Made by a program: the position numbers and the translations under genes. A stretch of DNA of 64,000 nucleotides, from NCBI RefSeq assembly GCF_009914755.1, contig NC_060946.1; one strand, 5' to 3'. A model generated the notes under the pieces. The model did not search any database, was not told the DNA's origin, and saw only the letters and a list, made by a program, of their open reading frames with translations. Below are positions 5,581 through 16,257 of this stretch, piece after piece; the first letter of the stretch is position 1; every line of letters starts with the position of its first letter. This DNA is from the human T2T-CHM13v2.0 reference genome, Homo sapiens.

Positions 5581-5672
5581 TAGTATATGCACGTGCATAA
5601 AGTACGTTGTCCAGTACTGCATCATGGTCTACATTAAAGCGATCAGCAATGTCCCTAAGGCGATCTGGACGG
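5581..5672 (-). CDS. DMC1: DMC1 exon 9 ([32 protein letters not shown]), 92 nt
   Basis: Acceptor ctccag, donor A|gtaaga, phase 2-1. Contained in ORF 5498..5686. Confidence 0.97.
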
Positions 5673-7103
5673 CTGGAGTATGCCAAGATTAAGGATCCAA
5701 TAAGTCAATTCTAAAAAAGTTTAGACAACCACTACAAAACATAATATCTTCCGTAAATTAACAGAGAAGCCAAACAATGTACCTGTGAAGGTATTCTAGA
5801 GGATGCTAGCAACCATTTAAAGTCTATACAAGATTTGTTTATTCATAAGTGCCTCAACTTACCATAGGTAGTGATAATGGTCATAGAAATGTGAGGCAGT
5901 AATGACTTTAACTATTAAATTATCAAAACTTTACAATAACCTTGGAAGCTAGTTTTTATGGCCTGTTTTACATTTTACAACGTAAGACACTGGCAAACAG
6001 AGATTAGGCAAATGACTTGAGCTTATGCAGCAAATCAGTTACAAGAGAAAAACTAGGAACTAAGCTTTGTGAGTCCTTTTGTTCTCAGATCTATAAAAAT
6101 AGACCTGTAATAGATAATATCACTGAATTATAATTCAATAACTGCAAAGTGAATTAATTCACTCTCTTCATACCCCTCATTGCTCAATATGAAATAGTTT
6201 ATTATATTATTAATCACATGTTGTTAAATGATAAATTTGACTACATGAACCAAAGGGTCAAAAAGGTAACTTCAAGGGCCCAGAAGAGAAATATCGACCA
6301 AAGGTTTTTTGTTGGCATAGGTTTTCTTTTTCTTTTCAAATCTTACCTGGAAAGTATATACAGTTTAAAATCTACTTTCTTCTAAAGGAGTTGTTAGCTT
6401 TTTTTTTGTTTTCTCCTCCTTCAGTCTCCTGAGTAGCTGTGATTACAGGCGCGAGCCATCATACCTAGCTAATTTTTGTATTTTTAGTGGAGACGGGGTT
6501 TCACCATGTTGGCCAGGCTGGTTTCAAACTACTGACCTCAAGTGATATGCCTGCCTCGGCCTCCCAAAGTGATAGGATTACAGGCATGAGCCACCATGCC
6601 TAGCCAGGAGTTGTTAGCTTTCTGAAATTAGCAAATTCATAGGGAAGCAAACTAAGTGCACCTGCAAAAGTATTCTGGAAGAAGCTAATAATCACTTATA
6701 CCTATAAACTATAAAGGAGTAATAAACATTTTTTTTAGGTCTTTGGTGATCCCAACAATATGTCTGAAGTAAAATGAGGTAAAATTAAATGCATGTTTGT
6801 AACCTTATTTCACTTTGTTTATAGTGTTTACATAACACTGATCCCAGTATAAGTAACTGTAAATCAAGGACCATTTATAATCTTATTTGTGATGTTTGCA
6901 ATTAATTTAAATTCCCAGCCATTTATATCCTAATGCACTAGATATGTTCTTGTTGTTAGAGCTTTGGTGACAGCCACAAAAATCTTCCATTGTTATTGAG
7001 TATACCCAGTAGATGTTTTTGGTGGACAAGTTAGACAGGGAATTGGAAGAGGCAATAAAAACATTTTCATCATGTCGGTTTCTACAAATCCCAGATACTA
7101 TGT

Positions 7104-8040
7104 TGTGGCAGGCCAGGTCTTACTAATGCAGGCCTCCATAACAACTGTTTCAGCACTGACTGAGTGGTTAAGTTAAATATTAAAAGCTGAAAGTGCCCTT
7201 ATACAAAGGCTGGAATGTAACAAAAGGCCACCAAGAGTTTTGCCCAGGCCTTTCCTGGGCCTTGAAGCATGACAAGATAATGAAGAAATTCTTAACAGTA
7301 CCTGTTTAGGATTAAACGAGTTTTACTGGGGGCCTGAAGAAACTCCCTAGGTCTCCACAAACAAGTTATTGGGGGTCTGAAGGAACTCCCCAAACCTCCA
7401 TGATTTATCAGGAGATAAGATAAGGGTAATCACCCCAGCACCTGGACCCATTTAGATTAAGTAAATTTACTGAGGCTCCAGAGGAATGTCTTTAGGACTC
7501 AGATCTTAGTTATAGATCAAAAGAAGTTAATCACTTATATATTTTTAAAAATTTTTATTTTATTTTTTTGAGATGGAGTCTCACTCTGTTGCTCAGGCTG
7601 GAGTCCAGTGGCACAATCTCGGCTCACTGCAACCTCTGCCTCCCTGGTTCAAGTGATTCTCTTGCCTGAGCATCCTGAGTAGCTGGGACTACAGGCGTGT
7701 GCCACCATGCCCAGCTAATTTTTGTATTTTTAGTAGAGACAAGGTTTCGCCATGTTGGCCAGGATGGTCTTGAACTCCTGACTTCAAGTGTTCCACCCAC
7801 CTCGGCCTCTCAAAGTGACTTATGTCGTTAGATGAATGCACACTTACAATAAACATATAGCTGAGAAGGTATATAAGTTCTGGAAGACTTTGTAATTTTG
7901 AGTTGGTCTGGTGTTATTTTCCAGGTCTTCTCCCTGTAACCGGTTACGGAAACAAAAACTCCCTCCTTTCCCAGTTCATTTGCATCTCATTATTGGGCCA
8001 TAAGAATAAGCAGCCTGATCCTCAGTTTGGTCTGGGAACA
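7104..8040 (+). mobile_element. ERV1 solo LTR (LTR15-like) with an Alu (-) inserted at ~7540-7817
   Basis: TG...CA ends, 4-bp TSD ATGT (7100-7103 and 8041-8044). Family assignment from recall. Confidence 0.75.
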
Positions 8041-9443
8041 ATGTGACCACGGGTGTAAAACTTGGGCTTAAATCCTCAACAAAATACTAGCAAACCAAAT
8101 TCAACAATACATTAAACAGATCATTCATCATGACCAAGTAGGATTCGTCTCAGGGATGCAAGGATGGTTCAACATATACAAATCAATGTGATATATCAAC
8201 AGAACGGACAAAAAACATATGATCATTTCAATTGATGCTGAAAAAAGCATTTGATAAAATTCAACGTTCATTTATGATAAAAAAAAAACCCTCAAAAAAT
8301 TGGGTATAGAAGGAACATAACCCAACATAAAAACCATACACAACAGACCCACAGCTAGTATCATACTAGATGGGGAAAAACTGAAAGTCTTTCCTCTAAG
8401 ATCTGGAACAAGTATGCCCACTTTCACCACTGTTATTCAACATAATTCTCAAAGTCCTAGCTAGAGCAATCAGACAAGAGAAATAAATAAAGGTCATCCA
8501 GATTGAAAAGGAGGAAGTCAAATTATCCTTGTTTGCTGATAATAAGATCTTATGTTTGGAAAAACCCAGACTCCACCAAAAAGCTATTAGAACTGATAAA
8601 CAAATTCAGTAAAGTTGCAGGATACAAAATCAACATACAAAAATCAGCAGCATTTCTAAATACCGACAGGGAACAATCTGAAAAAGAAATTCAAAAATTA
8701 ATCCCATTTACAATAGCTACAAATAAAATTAAAGACCTAGAAATTAACTTAACCAAAGAAGTGAAGGATCTCTACAATGAAAACTATAAAACATTGATGA
8801 AATACATTGAAGAGGACACACAAAAAACAGAAAGATATTGCATGTTCATGAGTTGGAAGAATCAGTACTGTTAAAATGTCCATACTAAACACAGCAATCT
8901 ACAGAATCAATGCAATTCCTATCAAAATACCAATGACATTCTTCAGAGAAATAGAAAAACAACCCTAAAATTTATATGGAACCACAAAAGACCCAGAATA
9001 GCCAAAGCTATCTTGAGCAAAAAGAACGAAACTAAAGGAACCACATAACCTGACTTCAAATTATACTATAGAGCTATAGTATCCAAAACAGCACGGTATG
9101 GGCATAAAAACAGATGCATAGACCAATGGAACAGAATATAAAACTCAGAAACAAATCCACACACCTACAGTGAACTCATTTTCGACAAAGTTGCCAATAA
9201 CATACATTGGAGAAAGGACGGTCTCTTCAGTAAATGGTGCTGGGAAAATGGGATATCCATAAGCAGAAGAATGAAATTAGACCCCTATCTCTCACCATAT
9301 ACAAAAATCAAATAAAAATGGATTAAAGACTTAAATCTAAGACCTCAAACTATGAAACTACTAAAAGGAAGCATTGGGGAAACTCTGTAGAACACTGGAC
9401 TGGGTAAAGATTTCTTGAGTAATACCACACAAGCACAGTCAAC

Positions 9444-14300: not shown

Positions 14301-15894
14301 TTGACTTTTACAACCAGATTTCCTTCTACTTCCTCTGTCTCTGGGTTTCTCATTTTAGTCCTCTTCCTAAATATAAACATACCTCAAAGTTATGTTCTCA
14401 ATTCTCCTCTCTTCTCTCTCTATAAGTTCTCTTTCCCCCTTGGTTAATTCGTCCATATTTCTGGGCCTACCCCTTTCTCAAGCTGAATTCAATATTTCCC
14501 AGTGCCATCTGGATATCCTCATGTACATCATATTCAATACATTAAAATGATGGCTGGGTGCAATGGCTCATGCCTGTAATCCCAGTCCTTTGGGAGGCCA
14601 AGGCAGGCAGATCGCTTGAGCCCAGGAGTTGGAGATCAGCCTGGGCAACGTGGTGAAACCTGGTCTCTACAAAAGATAAAAAAAATTAGCCAGGCGTGGT
14701 GGTATGTGCCTGTAGTTCCAGCTACTCAGAAGGCTGAAGTGGGAGGATCACTTGACCCTGGGAGTTCGAGTCTGCAGTGAGTGTAATTGGGCCACTGCAC
14801 TCCAGCCTGGGCAACAGAGCAAGAACCTGTCTCAAAAGAAGAAAAAAATTAGGCCAGGCGTGATGGCTCACGCCTATAATTCCAACACTTTGGGAGGCTA
14901 AGGTGGGTGGATCACTTGAGGTCAGGAGTTCAAAACCAGCCTGGCCAACATGGCGAAACCCCATCTGTATTAAAAATACAAAAATTAGCCAGGTGTGGTG
15001 GTGTACATTTGTAAACTTAGCTACTTGGGAAGCTGAGGTTGCAGTGAGTTGAGACTGCACCACTGCATTCCAGCCTGGGTGATGGAGAAAGACACTGTCT
15101 CAAAAAAAAAAAAGTAAAATTAGTACATTAAAATGAAACATCACCTTTTCTCTTTTTCTCTGAAGCATGATCTTTCCAGTTCTATTGTTAGCATCACATA
15201 ACTATTCTCCTAGTATCTAGACAAAAAACCTGAGCGGTTTCTCAAACCTGTCTTTCCTTTGTCTACCAAATATAGCCATCAAGTCCTATCAATTTTCCTA
15301 ATACTTCTTTTCCTTTTCTTTTTATTCTTACCAGTTCCAACCTAGATCAAGTTCTCATTACTTGCCTAGAATATTGCTAAAGTATCCAGTTTACACCCAC
15401 TATCTTGTTTCAAAGCCTTTCATGTCTAAGATCCCAATCATCTTTCTAGCCCATATCCTGGAATACCTTACACTTTAATTAAACTGCAATTCGTTGTGTT
15501 ACCCAAACAGGTTCTGCCTGTTTTCCTTATTAACTTTCACCCTCTTCATACCGTTCCCTTCATTTGGGACCATGACTTTCAGTGAGTCAATAATCTTTCA
15601 GCCAGGCGCAGTCGCTCACCCCTGTAATCCTAGCACTGTGGGAGGCTGAGGCAGGTGGATCACCTGAGGTCAGGAGTTCCAGAACAGCCTGGTCAACATG
15701 TCAAAACCCTGTCTCTACTAAAAATACAAAAAAATTAGCCAGGTGTGGTGGCACACACCTGTAATCCCAGCTACTCGGTAGGCTGAGGCAGGAGAATTGA
15801 TTGAACCCAAGAGATGGAGGTTGCAGTGAGCCGAGATTGCCCCACTGGACTCCAGCCTGGGCAACAGGGAGATTCCGTCTCAAAAAAAAAAAAA
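11388..15894. mobile_element. Alu cluster in DMC1 intron 8: 11388-11686(+), 11688-11979(-), 12368-12661(+), 13329-13570(-), 13797-14097(-), 14552-14850(+), 14852-15113(+), 15600-15894(+)
   Basis: Alu consensus. Confidence 0.88.
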
Positions 15895-16184
15895 TCTTTT
15901 TTCTAACTATTAAGCAACATCTTTAGAGAAGTAAGAGGATTAAAAATGATGATATAATTTCCTCTCATGTATTTGTTTTGTCTCATAAACCCATATGAAG
16001 AAGTGAAACCTCATTAAATACAAAGTGATTGGAGAACTTAAACAGTAATTGTTTTCCCTTTGGTTTGTCTCATTACTACTGGTTTATGGAATGACTACAA
16101 AGATTGTATATCTCAGACAAACTCTTCAGTGGTAACATTCCTATATCACACTATTATGTTAGCAACTTTAAATAAAAAGGTTAC

Positions 16185-16257
16185 AAAGTATTTTCTGTAT
16201 CAATGAAGATAATCTTTCCTCCTGGGTAGCCACCAGCTCCTGGAAGTTGAGCTGTCA
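16185..16257 (-). CDS. DMC1: DMC1 exon 8 (V-TAQLPGAGGYPGGKIIFIDTENT-F), 73 nt
   Basis: Acceptor ttcctag, atypical donor TT|GTAACCTTT, conserved IDTE motif. Confidence 0.96.

What the first reader, a model, noticed from the sequence alone, without database searches (positions are those of the whole stretch)
5581..16257. DMC1 intron 8 looks like an atypical minor-spliceosome (U12) intron and would explain the 55-aa-skipped DMC1-D isoform
Seen: the donor is TTT|GTAACCTTTT (16184 downward). This is a very poor U2 site (no -1G, no +5G) but one mismatch (+4 T>A) from the U12 consensus GTATCCTTT. The acceptor is ATCCTTAATCTTGGCATACTCCAG|, a U12-like branch site (TCCTTRAY) with the A about 17 nt upstream and no polypyrimidine tract. 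The intron is phase 2. Exons 8 (73 nt) and 9 (92 nt) each break frame alone but total 165 nt (55 codons), and exon 7 joins exon 10 in frame (G+GT = Gly). Established: U12 and U2 sites generally do not pair with each other, and a meiotic DMC1 transcript lacking 55 aa is known in human and mouse. Inference: slow minor splicing lets the major spliceosome skip both exons together, so U11/U12 availability could set the ratio of full-length to ATPase-core-deleted DMC1 in meiocytes. I do not know whether intron databases already classify this intron as minor.
Basis: partly seen in the sequence, partly recalled or inferred. Interest (0 to 1): 0.85.

Follow-up and report, generated by a model that had tools for sequence, protein, structure and literature searches.

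The report
DMC1 intron 8: probable minor-spliceosome intron
The intron between the two exons that the short DMC1 isoform leaves out carries the sequence signals of the rare minor (U12-type) class of intron, so this meiotic recombinase may depend directly on the minor spliceosome, but that has not been shown experimentally.

Summary
On the minus strand the donor is TTT|GTAACCTTT. The acceptor region is TCCTTAAT, then 14 nt, then AG. The intron is phase 2. RefSeq isoforms NM_001278208.2 and NM_001363017.2 skip exactly the 73-nt and 92-nt exons.

I compared these sites with 383 annotated donors and 404 acceptors from chr22.
- **Donor:** it has the second-worst U2 score. Only MAPK12's evident U12 donor scores lower. 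It is also the closest match to the U12 core.
- **Branch site:** it matches TCCTTRAY perfectly, 17 nt from the 3' end. Only 4 of 404 acceptors do, and two of those belong to evident U12 introns.
- **Chance:** finding both signals at one intron by chance is expected well under once per genome.
- **snRNA pairing:** U1 can pair only 4 bp, whereas U11 pairs 7 contiguous bp. The +4 A costs one pair with U6atac.

My best reading, at about 0.65, is a true GT-AG U12-type intron with a variant +4. Skipping of both flanking exons is the published signature event around minor introns.

Four things remain untested: dependence on the minor spliceosome, conservation in orthologues, the mapped branch point, and listing in the intron databases. 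RAD51 has no intron at this position. I found no open full-text paper that calls DMC1 a minor-intron gene. I rate it a new member of a known kind, of moderate interest.

The parts
16176..16184 (-). 5' splice site of DMC1 intron 8, GTAACCTTT (+1..+9). It is U12-like with A instead of T at +4, and it is preceded by exon bases TTT.
   Evidence: One search gives the sequence. U2 PWM score -0.90, 2nd lowest of 376 GT donors, and 6/7 match to ATCCTTT, the best of 383; 4 bp with U1 and 7 contiguous bp with U11 nt 1-7.
5688..5695 (-). U12-type branch-site motif TCCTTAAT. The predicted branch adenosine is 5689 (or 5690), at -17 from the 3' junction.
   Evidence: Searches give sequence and position; 8/8 match to TCCTTRAY, one of 4 among 404 acceptors; pairs with U12 nt 16-24 as UCCUUA[A]UC, with the second A unpaired.
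5673..5674 (-). 3' terminal AG of intron 8. There is no long pyrimidine run between the branch motif and the AG.
   Evidence: U2 acceptor PWM 3.40, 19th lowest of 403.
5673..16184 (-). DMC1 intron 8, 10,512 nt, phase 2.
   Evidence: RefSeq exon coordinates; phase.
16185..16257 (-). DMC1 exon 8 (73 nt), skipped in the short isoform. Its upstream U2 acceptor, with intron 7 ending at 16258, is very weak.
   Evidence: acceptor PWM -0.5, 1.0 percentile.
5581..5672 (-). DMC1 exon 9 (92 nt), skipped together with exon 8. Its downstream donor CTA|GTAAGAGCC is an ordinary U2 type.
   Evidence: donor PWM 4.27, 9th percentile.
18921..18962 (-). DMC1 exon 7. Its U2 donor GTG|GTAAGGATA is joined to exon 10 in the skipping isoform.
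   Evidence: last base G; donor PWM 8.44, 48th percentile.
4800..4873 (-). DMC1 exon 10. Its U2 acceptor is used in the skipping isoform. G + GT restores the frame as Gly.
   Evidence: acceptor PWM 8.77, 39th percentile.

Best explanation
DMC1 intron 8 is a GT-AG U12-type (minor) intron with a variant 5' splice site, A instead of T at +4.

The inferred mechanism has four parts:
1. The U11/U12 di-snRNP recognises the donor through U11 nt 1-7 pairing with CCUUUUU at +5..+11.
2. It recognises the branch site through U12 pairing with UCCUUA[A]U, with the adenosine at 5689 or 5690 bulged out.
3. U6atac then replaces U11 with one pair fewer than at a consensus site.
4. The intron sits between major (U2-type) introns, so exons 8 and 9 must be defined by cross-talk between the two spliceosomes.

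When that cross-talk fails or is slow, the major spliceosome joins the good U2 donor of intron 7 to the good U2 acceptor of intron 9. This removes exons 8 and 9 together (165 nt, in frame) and gives the 285-aa DMC1-D-type isoform.

Shown here: the motifs, their rarity, the pairing potential and the isoform structure. Inferred: which spliceosome acts, the branch point, and the causal link to skipping.
For: **Sequence.** TTT|GTAACCTTT at the donor, and TCCTTAAT, 14 nt, then AG at the acceptor.

**Donor.** Its U2 PWM score is -0.90, the 2nd lowest of 376 GT donors (median 8.67). Only MAPK12's GTATCCTCC scores lower. Its U12-core match is 6/7, the best of 383. The two donors at 5/7 are MAPK12 and LZTR1 (GCATCCTCA), and each has a U12-type branch motif at its own acceptor.

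**Branch site.** An 8/8 branch motif within 8-40 nt occurs at 4 of 404 acceptors. These are LZTR1, the FAM227A AT-AC intron, DMC1, and one clear chance hit in SH3BP1, which has a CAG|GTACGT donor and a strong pyrimidine tract.

**Chance estimate.** Given a U2-type donor, P(AACCTTT) is about 7e-6, and P(at least 6/7 with CC kept) is about 3e-5. Combined with about 2.5e-3 for the branch motif, and allowing tenfold for AT-rich genes, the expectation is well under one such intron among roughly 2e5 human introns. That intron count is recalled.

**Position in the window.** Placement of the motif upstream of acceptors is enriched, P about 8e-4.

**snRNA pairing.**
- U1 pairs only GUAA, at -1.3 kcal/mol. 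That is the weakest of the 12 DMC1 donors; the other 11 range from -4.1 to -12.0.
- U6atac nt 7-24 gives -7.9, within the range of the three U12 controls (-5.3 to -9.1). The other 11 DMC1 donors give +0.3 to -3.3.
- U11 pairs 7 contiguous Watson-Crick bp.
- U12 gives -12.7, against -9.5 to -10.3 for the three controls.

**Published discriminators, Olthof 2024 (PMC11347168, section 19 read).**
- No A-2 G-1 at the donor: DMC1 has TT.
- CC in the branch motif: present.
- No G at exon +1 of the acceptor: DMC1 has C.

**Phase.** The intron is phase 2.

**Isoforms.** Two BestRefSeq transcripts skip exactly exons 8 and 9.

**Published signature (Olthof 2021).** Double-flanking-exon skipping is the signature of minor-spliceosome failure.
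Against: - **The +4 position.** +4 is A, not the (recalled) near-invariant T. In the canonical register this removes the pair with U6atac A16 and the wobble with U11 G8 (read from the sequences).
- **Branch-motif ending.** The base after the branch A's is T, not C. Olthof 2024 linked that C to ZRSR2-only binding.
- **Weak discrimination by duplex energy.** Unconstrained energies do not separate the classes well. Two ordinary DMC1 donors gave U11 values of -9.9 and -10.5 through off-register GCCCC pairing. The free fold with U6atac also chose a non-canonical register.
- **Other weak sites in DMC1.** The intron 10 donor is in the 0.5 percentile, the intron 10 acceptor in the 0.5 percentile, and the intron 5 donor in the 1.1 percentile. 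Weakness alone therefore does not prove minor splicing.
- **Possible U2 branch use.** A sequence fitting the U2 branch pattern overlaps the motif (UUAAU), and others lie at -29 and -33, by my reading.
- **Silence of the U11-knockout study.** The testis study from the laboratory that curates the Minor Intron Database stains for DMC1 and reports less DMC1, yet never calls Dmc1 a minor-intron gene in its main text. All 8 places that mention it were shown, and section 26 was read.
- **Limits of my background.** It holds only 383 donors and 404 acceptors, drawn from exon-dense, GC-rich stretches.
- **Missing data.** I could obtain no orthologue, branch-point or knock-down data.
Confidence: 0.65

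Rival explanations
1. The intron is a former U12-type intron in transition. MIDB (the Minor Intron Database) would call it 'minor-like', 'hybrid' or 'non-canonical'. It keeps the U12 motifs but is now removed wholly or partly by the major spliceosome. The T-to-A change at +4 would be a step towards the U2 donor consensus GTAAGT.
For: - +4 A matches the U2 preference: A has frequency 0.61 at +4 in my U2 donors.
- +4 A breaks a U6atac pair.
- UUAAU inside the motif fits the loose U2 branch pattern (my reading).
- DMC1 tolerates other very weak U2 sites.
- The U11-knockout paper does not list Dmc1 as a minor-intron gene in its main text.
Against: - U1 can pair only 4 bp, with no help from the exon side, which reads TTT.
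- A-2 G-1, the feature that Olthof 2024 ties to major-spliceosome capture, is absent.
- The CC of the branch motif is intact and lies at a minor-type distance of 17 nt.
- The acceptor has only a weak pyrimidine tract.
Confidence: 0.25
2. The intron is an ordinary weak U2-type intron whose likeness to U12 signals is chance. On this reading, the exon 8+9 skipping isoform comes from weak exon definition: exon 8 has a poor acceptor. The frame rule adds to this, because single skips shift the frame and would be lost.
For: - The exon 8 acceptor is in the 1.0 percentile.
- Each exon alone breaks the frame.
- Chance branch-motif hits exist, such as SH3BP1.
- GTAACCTTT occurs about 20,000 times in the genome.
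- RTATCCT occurs twice inside RAD51 introns, away from splice sites.
Against: The joint occurrence at both ends of one annotated intron is expected well under once per genome. In my sample, every other donor with at least 5/7 core match, and 2 of the 3 other perfect branch motifs, belong to evident U12 introns.
Confidence: 0.07

Closest known systems
GT-AG U12-type (minor) introns, for example those of MAPK12 and LZTR1 on the same chromosome
   Same: - A CC-containing donor core after GT (or GC).
- A TCCTTRAY-type branch motif 12-21 nt from the 3' end.
- A poor U2 donor score.
- U2-type introns on both sides.
   Different: - DMC1 has A at +4, where both controls and the consensus have T.
- Its branch motif (8/8) and its T run after CC are better than in either control.
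- Its dependence on the minor spliceosome is untested here.
The AT-AC U12-type intron of the neighbouring gene FAM227A (acceptor at window 63622)
   Same: It has a minor-type branch motif (TTCCTTGAC) 14 nt from the 3' end and no usable U1 pairing.
   Different: FAM227A has the textbook ATATCCTT...AC form. DMC1 is the GT-AG subtype with a variant +4.
'Minor-like', 'hybrid' and 'non-canonical' intron classes of the Minor Intron Database (Olthof 2024, PMC11347168)
   Same: The intron departs from the minor consensus at one scored position. The database's minor donor matrix covers +4 to +9.
   Different: Minor-like introns are enriched for A-2 G-1 and G-1 at the donor, for loss of the branch CC, and for G at the first exon base of the acceptor. 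DMC1 intron 8 has none of these. I could not look up its actual class.
Skipping of both exons flanking a minor intron ('CAT2' events, Olthof 2021, PMC8034651)
   Same: The RefSeq short DMC1 isoforms join the upstream U2 donor to the downstream U2 acceptor across the candidate minor intron. describes this same event.
   Different: - In that paper the aberrant isoforms are described as carrying premature stop codons, whereas the DMC1 event is in frame.
- By the title of Habu 1996 (seen only in a reference list), the DMC1 event is a normal meiotic transcript in mouse and human.
- Its response to minor-spliceosome inhibition is unknown.
SPO11, another meiotic recombination gene with a minor intron
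   Same: It is a meiosis-specific recombination gene whose expression depends on minor splicing. Section 26 of PMC12956336 reports that its minor intron is conserved in most mammals.
   Different: SPO11's intron is already classified as minor. DMC1's is not named as such in any main text I could search.

Membership tests
U12-type (minor) intron | Donor consensus [A/G]TATCCTT at +1..+8 (consensus as recalled; the database matrix uses +4..+9) | tested here: inconclusive
   GTAACCTT matches 7 of 8, with the mismatch at +4. It is still the best U12-core match of 383 donors.
U12-type (minor) intron | Branch motif TCCTTRAY | tested here: met
   TCCTTAAT at 5688-5695, an 8/8 match, found at 4 of 404 acceptors. 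The final base is T rather than the commoner C.
U12-type (minor) intron | Short, constrained distance from branch point to 3' end (about 10-26 nt, recalled range) | tested here: met
   The second A is at -17. In the same measure the controls are LZTR1 at 12 and FAM227A at 14.
U12-type (minor) intron | No strong polypyrimidine tract | tested here: inconclusive
   The pyrimidine fraction at -20..-3 is 0.67 against a median of 0.72. The U2 acceptor PWM score is in the 4.5th percentile. This is weak but not absent.
U12-type (minor) intron | Donor unsuited to U1, with no A-2 G-1 | tested here: met
   The exon end is TTT. U1 pairs 4 bp at -1.3 kcal/mol, the weakest of 12 DMC1 donors. The criterion comes from Olthof 2024.
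U12-type (minor) intron | Complementarity to U11, U6atac and U12 snRNAs in the canonical registers | tested here: inconclusive
   U11 forms 7 Watson-Crick bp and U12 forms 6 + 2 bp around an unpaired A. U6atac loses the +4 pair, leaving 5 Watson-Crick pairs plus one wobble. Free-energy folds were not locked to a register.
U12-type (minor) intron | Removal depends on U11/U12/U4atac/U6atac | not testable with these tools
   No expression or knock-down data are within reach. The RNA-seq of the U11-knockout testis is public (GSE294209, named in the passage shown), but I could not read it here.
U12-type (minor) intron | Conservation of the motifs in orthologues | not testable with these tools
   No vertebrate genomes are available. 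The paralogue RAD51 has no intron at this position.
U12-type (minor) intron | Listed in U12DB, IAOD/intronIC or the Minor Intron Database | not testable with these tools
   There is no database access and supplements are closed. Full-text searches found no statement either way.
DMC1-D type isoform (55 aa shorter) | Lacks exactly exons 8 and 9, in frame | tested here: met
   NM_001278208.2 and NM_001363017.2 omit window 16185-16257 and 5581-5672. The loss is 165 nt, and the new junction codon is GGT. Habu 1996 itself was not held.

The most novel reading that the evidence does not exclude
DMC1 is a direct and so far overlooked target of the minor spliceosome. Its variant +4 A donor would make intron 8 an inefficient minor intron, so that U11/U12 activity in spermatocytes and oocytes sets how much full-length recombinase is made relative to the 55-aa-deleted DMC1-D form. 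On this reading, the loss of DMC1 protein and foci reported in U11-null mouse testis would be partly a direct splicing effect.
Probability: 0.25. Interest if true: 0.7.

Novelty: new member of a known kind. Interest (0 to 1): 0.5.

Why it matters
DMC1 is the meiosis-specific strand-exchange protein, and its loss causes meiotic arrest and infertility.

If its intron 8 is a minor intron, three things follow:
1. The long-known exon-skipped DMC1 transcript gets a simple mechanistic explanation.
2. DMC1 joins SPO11 among core recombination genes gated by the minor spliceosome.
3. The reduced DMC1 loading seen when U11 is removed from mouse germ cells (PMC12956336) could be tested as a direct effect, using sequencing data that already exist.

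It would also be a natural example of a working minor donor with A at +4. That is useful for tuning intron classifiers that may score such sites as non-canonical.

If intron databases already list it, the finding reduces to a sensible link between a known minor intron and a known isoform.

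Tried and rejected
**Paralogue test.** I fetched RAD51 and mapped it with a DMC1 translation. 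RAD51 codes [23 protein letters not shown] in one exon. It therefore has no intron at the DMC1 intron 8 position, and the paralogue says nothing about the ancestral intron type.

**Large chr22 background.** I planned 140 exon-dense 10-kb stretches. Only the first 20 could be fetched, so the background is 383 donors and 404 acceptors rather than about 1,500 introns. It is biased to GC-rich, short-intron genes.

**Genome-wide pattern count.** GTAACCTTT has 19,966 matches, of which only the first 100, on chr1, are listed. Exon tables exist only for chr22, so this was useless for finding other annotated donors of this form.

**A proper U12 position weight matrix.** I could not build one, because my sample holds only three evident U12 introns. 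I used consensus matches and snRNA pairing instead.

**Free duplex folding.** It is only partly informative. It produced off-register U11 pairings for two ordinary donors and a non-canonical U6atac register.

**Literature.**
- 'DMC1' + 'U12': 35 papers, 25 listed.
- 'DMC1' + 'minor intron': 2 papers.
- 'DMC1' + 'minor spliceosome': 3 papers.
- I read passages from PMC12956336, PMC11594017 and PMC7507305 (no mention of DMC1). None links DMC1 splicing to the minor spliceosome.
- The search for 'DMC1-D' returned only hyphenated phrases and was useless.
- Habu 1996 is not held. I saw only its title, in a reference list.
- My recollection of a TRAPPC2 +4 donor variant could not be confirmed at the level of position, so I do not use it.
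- Supplementary tables are closed. These include the intron lists of the Minor Intron Database papers and Tables S1-S5 of PMC12956336, which may already classify this intron or report its splicing in U11-null testis.

**Orthologues.** No tool reaches vertebrate genomes. I did not search for short DMC1 isoforms in other species, because that needs a spliced (joined) protein as the query, and I may not type one.

Full report
**Observation**

Read on the minus strand, exon 8 of DMC1 ends ...AATACTTT at 16185, and intron 8 begins GTAACCTTTTTATTT at 16184. The intron ends ...TTGGATCCTTAATCTTGGCATACTCCAG at 5673, and exon 9 begins CCGTCC. The pattern search places TCCTTAAT at 5688-5695. Its two adenosines are therefore at 5690 and 5689, and the second is at -17 from the exon.

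The RefSeq table shows that the MANE transcript NM_007068.4 has 14 exons, of which these are exons 8 (73 nt) and 9 (92 nt). Two curated transcripts, NM_001278208.2 and NM_001363017.2, lack exactly these two exons. Several Gnomon models also skip the 42-nt exon 7.

My script gives cumulative coding lengths of 421 nt after exon 7, 494 after exon 8 and 586 after exon 9. Intron 8 is therefore phase 2, and introns 7 and 9 are both phase 1. Exon 7 ends in G and exon 10 starts GT, so the skipped junction reads GGT.

**Is it more than chance?**

I wanted a background of annotated splice sites. The chr22 table holds 4,813 unique introns of NM transcripts. With the window, this gives 383 unique donors and 404 unique acceptors, and 410 introns with both ends.

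*Donor.* A U2 donor matrix (-3..+6) built from these sites gives the intron 8 donor -0.90. That is the second lowest of 376 GT donors, whose median is 8.67. The only lower one is MAPK12, ACC|GTATCCTCC. Matches to the U12 core ATCCTTT at +3..+9 are distributed as follows over the 383 donors:

| Matches out of 7 | 0 | 1 | 2 | 3 | 4 | 5 | 6 |
|---|---|---|---|---|---|---|---|
| Donors | 106 | 161 | 85 | 21 | 7 | 2 | 1 |

The single 6 is DMC1 intron 8. The two 5s are MAPK12 and LZTR1 (GCT|GCATCCTCA).

*Acceptor.* A perfect TCCTTRAY whose second A lies 8-40 nt from the junction occurs at 4 of 404 acceptors:
- LZTR1, the partner of the donor above.
- An intron of FAM227A that ends in AC.
- DMC1 intron 8.
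- SH3BP1, which has a CAG|GTACGT donor and a strong pyrimidine tract and is a plain chance hit.

*Joint estimate.* From the U2 donor frequencies, the probability of AACCTTT at +3..+9 is about 7e-6. The probability of at least 6 of 7 matches with CC kept is about 3e-5. Because my background is GC-rich, these figures could be about tenfold higher for AT-rich genes. That factor is my estimate, not a computed value. Multiplied by about 2.5e-3 for the branch motif, the expected number among roughly 200,000 human introns (a recalled figure) is well below one.

*Within the window.* TCCTTRAY is not enriched overall, with 9 matches against 12.5 expected. Of the 6 on the gene strand, however, 2 fall in the 462 positions (0.72%) that lie 8-40 nt upstream of the 14 annotated acceptors (P about 8e-4).

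Its PWM score is 3.40, the 19th lowest of 403. Its pyrimidine fraction is 0.67 against a median of 0.72.

**Pairing with the snRNAs**

I took RNU11, RNU12, RNU6ATAC and RNU1-1 from the same genome.
- **U1:** it can pair only with GUAA, at -1.3 kcal/mol. This is the weakest of the 12 DMC1 donors; the other 11 range from -4.1 to -12.0.
- **U11:** nt 1-7 (AAAAAGG) pair with CCUUUUU at +5..+11, giving seven contiguous Watson-Crick pairs. By my reading of the sequences, the A at +4 costs only the wobble that a consensus U would make with G8, and the extra T's after CCTT extend the helix to the very 5' end of U11.
- **U6atac:** in the canonical register (recalled: +4..+9 against A16..A11), the A at +4 removes one Watson-Crick pair. 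Five pairs and a wobble remain. Restricted to nt 7-24, the duplex energy is -7.9. The three evident U12 donors give -5.3 to -9.1, and the other DMC1 donors give +0.3 to -3.3.
- **U12:** it pairs with UCCUUA, leaves the second A unpaired, and pairs again with UC, at -12.7. The three U12 controls give -9.5 to -10.3, and the chance SH3BP1 site gives -8.3.

There are limits to this analysis. The folds are not locked to a register. Two ordinary DMC1 donors scored -9.9 and -10.5 with U11 through an off-register GCCCC pairing. The free U6atac fold chose nt 16-26, a region that I recall as engaged with U12 in the active spliceosome.

**Published criteria**

Olthof 2024 (PMC11347168; sections 7, 16 and 19 read) scores the minor donor on +4..+9. 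It reports which features favour each spliceosome.
- Favouring capture by the major spliceosome: A-2 G-1 at the donor, loss of the branch CC, a pyrimidine tract, and a G at the first exon base.
- Favouring the minor spliceosome: an intact CC, and a C after the branch A's.

DMC1 intron 8 has TT at -2/-1, an intact CC and a C at the first exon base. It has T instead of C after the branch A's.

**The isoform**

Olthof 2021 (PMC8034651, passages) reports that inhibiting any minor snRNA raises exon skipping around minor introns. Skipping of both flanking exons was raised in 29 of 30 cases in a U11 knockout. The paper explains this by failed exon-bridging between the two spliceosomes.

The DMC1 short isoforms have exactly this architecture. 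They join the ordinary donor of intron 7 (48th percentile) to the ordinary acceptor of intron 9 (39th percentile).

Two other causes are not excluded. The acceptor of exon 8 is in the 1.0 percentile. Single skips shift the frame and would be hard to see.

The deleted 55 residues lie between GEFRTGKT and LLIIDS in my translation. I recognise these from memory as the two nucleotide-binding motifs.

**Evidence against, and gaps**

- The +4 A departs from what I recall as a nearly invariant T.
- DMC1 has other very weak sites that are not U12-like. These are the intron 10 donor TTG|GTACAAGC and the intron 10 acceptor, both in the 0.5 percentile, and the intron 5 donor in the 1.1 percentile. This gene therefore tolerates weak sites.
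- The 2026 study of U11-null mouse testis (PMC12956336) comes from the group that curates the Minor Intron Database. It stains for DMC1, finds fewer foci in zygotene and pachytene-like cells, and finds less Dmc1 protein. Its main text never calls Dmc1 a minor-intron gene or a 'gene of interest'. Either the mouse intron is not classified as minor, or the point was missed. The gene names in its figures and its supplementary tables were not visible to me.
- RAD51 has no intron at this position, so the paralogue gives no help.
- No vertebrate genomes, expression data, branch-point data or intron databases were within reach.

**Verdict**

- Most likely (about 0.65): a genuine GT-AG U12-type intron with a variant +4, and the cause of the two-exon skip.
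- Main rival (about 0.25): a U12-derived intron now handled wholly or partly by the major spliceosome.
- Pure chance: about 0.07.

By kind this is a new member of a known class. It may already sit in an intron database that I could not consult. I found no statement of it in the main text of open papers.

**Seen in passing**

The neighbouring gene FAM227A has a textbook AT-AC minor intron. Its acceptor is in the window (...TTCCTTGAC, 14 nt, then CAC| at 63622), and its donor, ATATCCTTG, lies just outside. In this assembly the MANE donor of another FAM227A intron reads AAG|GGAAGT.

Noticed in passing
window 63622-64000 (minus strand); donor outside the window at chr22:39064035 (L032): FAM227A has a textbook AT-AC U12-type intron of 2,414 nt. 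The branch motif TTCCTTGAC lies 14 nt from a terminal AC at 63622, and the donor is CACCCC|ATATCCTTG. Two adjacent genes therefore each carry a U12-type candidate within 64 kb.
   Followed up: yes
window 57700 (minus strand): The donor used by the FAM227A MANE transcript NM_001013647.2 (intron 52464-57700) reads AAG|GGAAGT in this assembly, so it is GG rather than GT. The Gnomon models use the canonical donor at 57626 (ACAT|GTAAGA) instead. This may be a donor-site variant in this genome or a mapping artefact.
   Followed up: partly
window 4671-4799 (minus strand): DMC1 intron 10 is only 129 nt. Both its donor (TTG|GTACAAGC) and its acceptor (...ATCCTGTGTAG) fall in the bottom 0.5 percentile of my U2 matrices, and it is not U12-like. 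DMC1 as a whole has unusually weak splice sites.
   Followed up: partly
window 16258-16290 (minus strand): The U2 acceptor in front of exon 8 (...AATTTTTAATTGCTTCCTAG) scores in the 1.0 percentile. Exon 8 therefore has a weak site on each side, which bears on why it is skipped.
   Followed up: partly
window 18921-18962 with 16185-16257 and 5581-5672: Several Gnomon models (for example XM_054325004.1 and XM_054325008.1) skip exon 7 as well as exons 8 and 9. That is 207 nt, or 69 codons, and stays in frame. It would also remove part of the GEFRTGKT motif region.
   Followed up: no
window 16174-16183 versus RNU6ATAC nt 17-26 (L005): Free folding pairs the donor's UAACCUUUUU with U6atac AGAAGGUUA (10 bp, -10.0 kcal/mol). 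This second register uses the +4 A. I recall this part of U6atac as pairing with U12 in the active spliceosome, so the match is probably irrelevant. I did not test it.
   Followed up: no
L027-L030 (RAD51, chr15:38500415-38538035): RAD51 has no intron at the DMC1 intron 8 position. Two RTATCCT motifs lie inside RAD51 introns, away from any exon boundary found by tblastn. This shows that the donor motif alone is common.
   Followed up: yes
L022 (chr22:38102455-38102659, SH3BP1): This ordinary U2-type intron of 205 nt (CAG|GTACGT donor, strong pyrimidine tract) carries a perfect TCCTTAAC 21 nt from its 3' end. It is a worked example of a chance branch-motif hit.
   Followed up: yes
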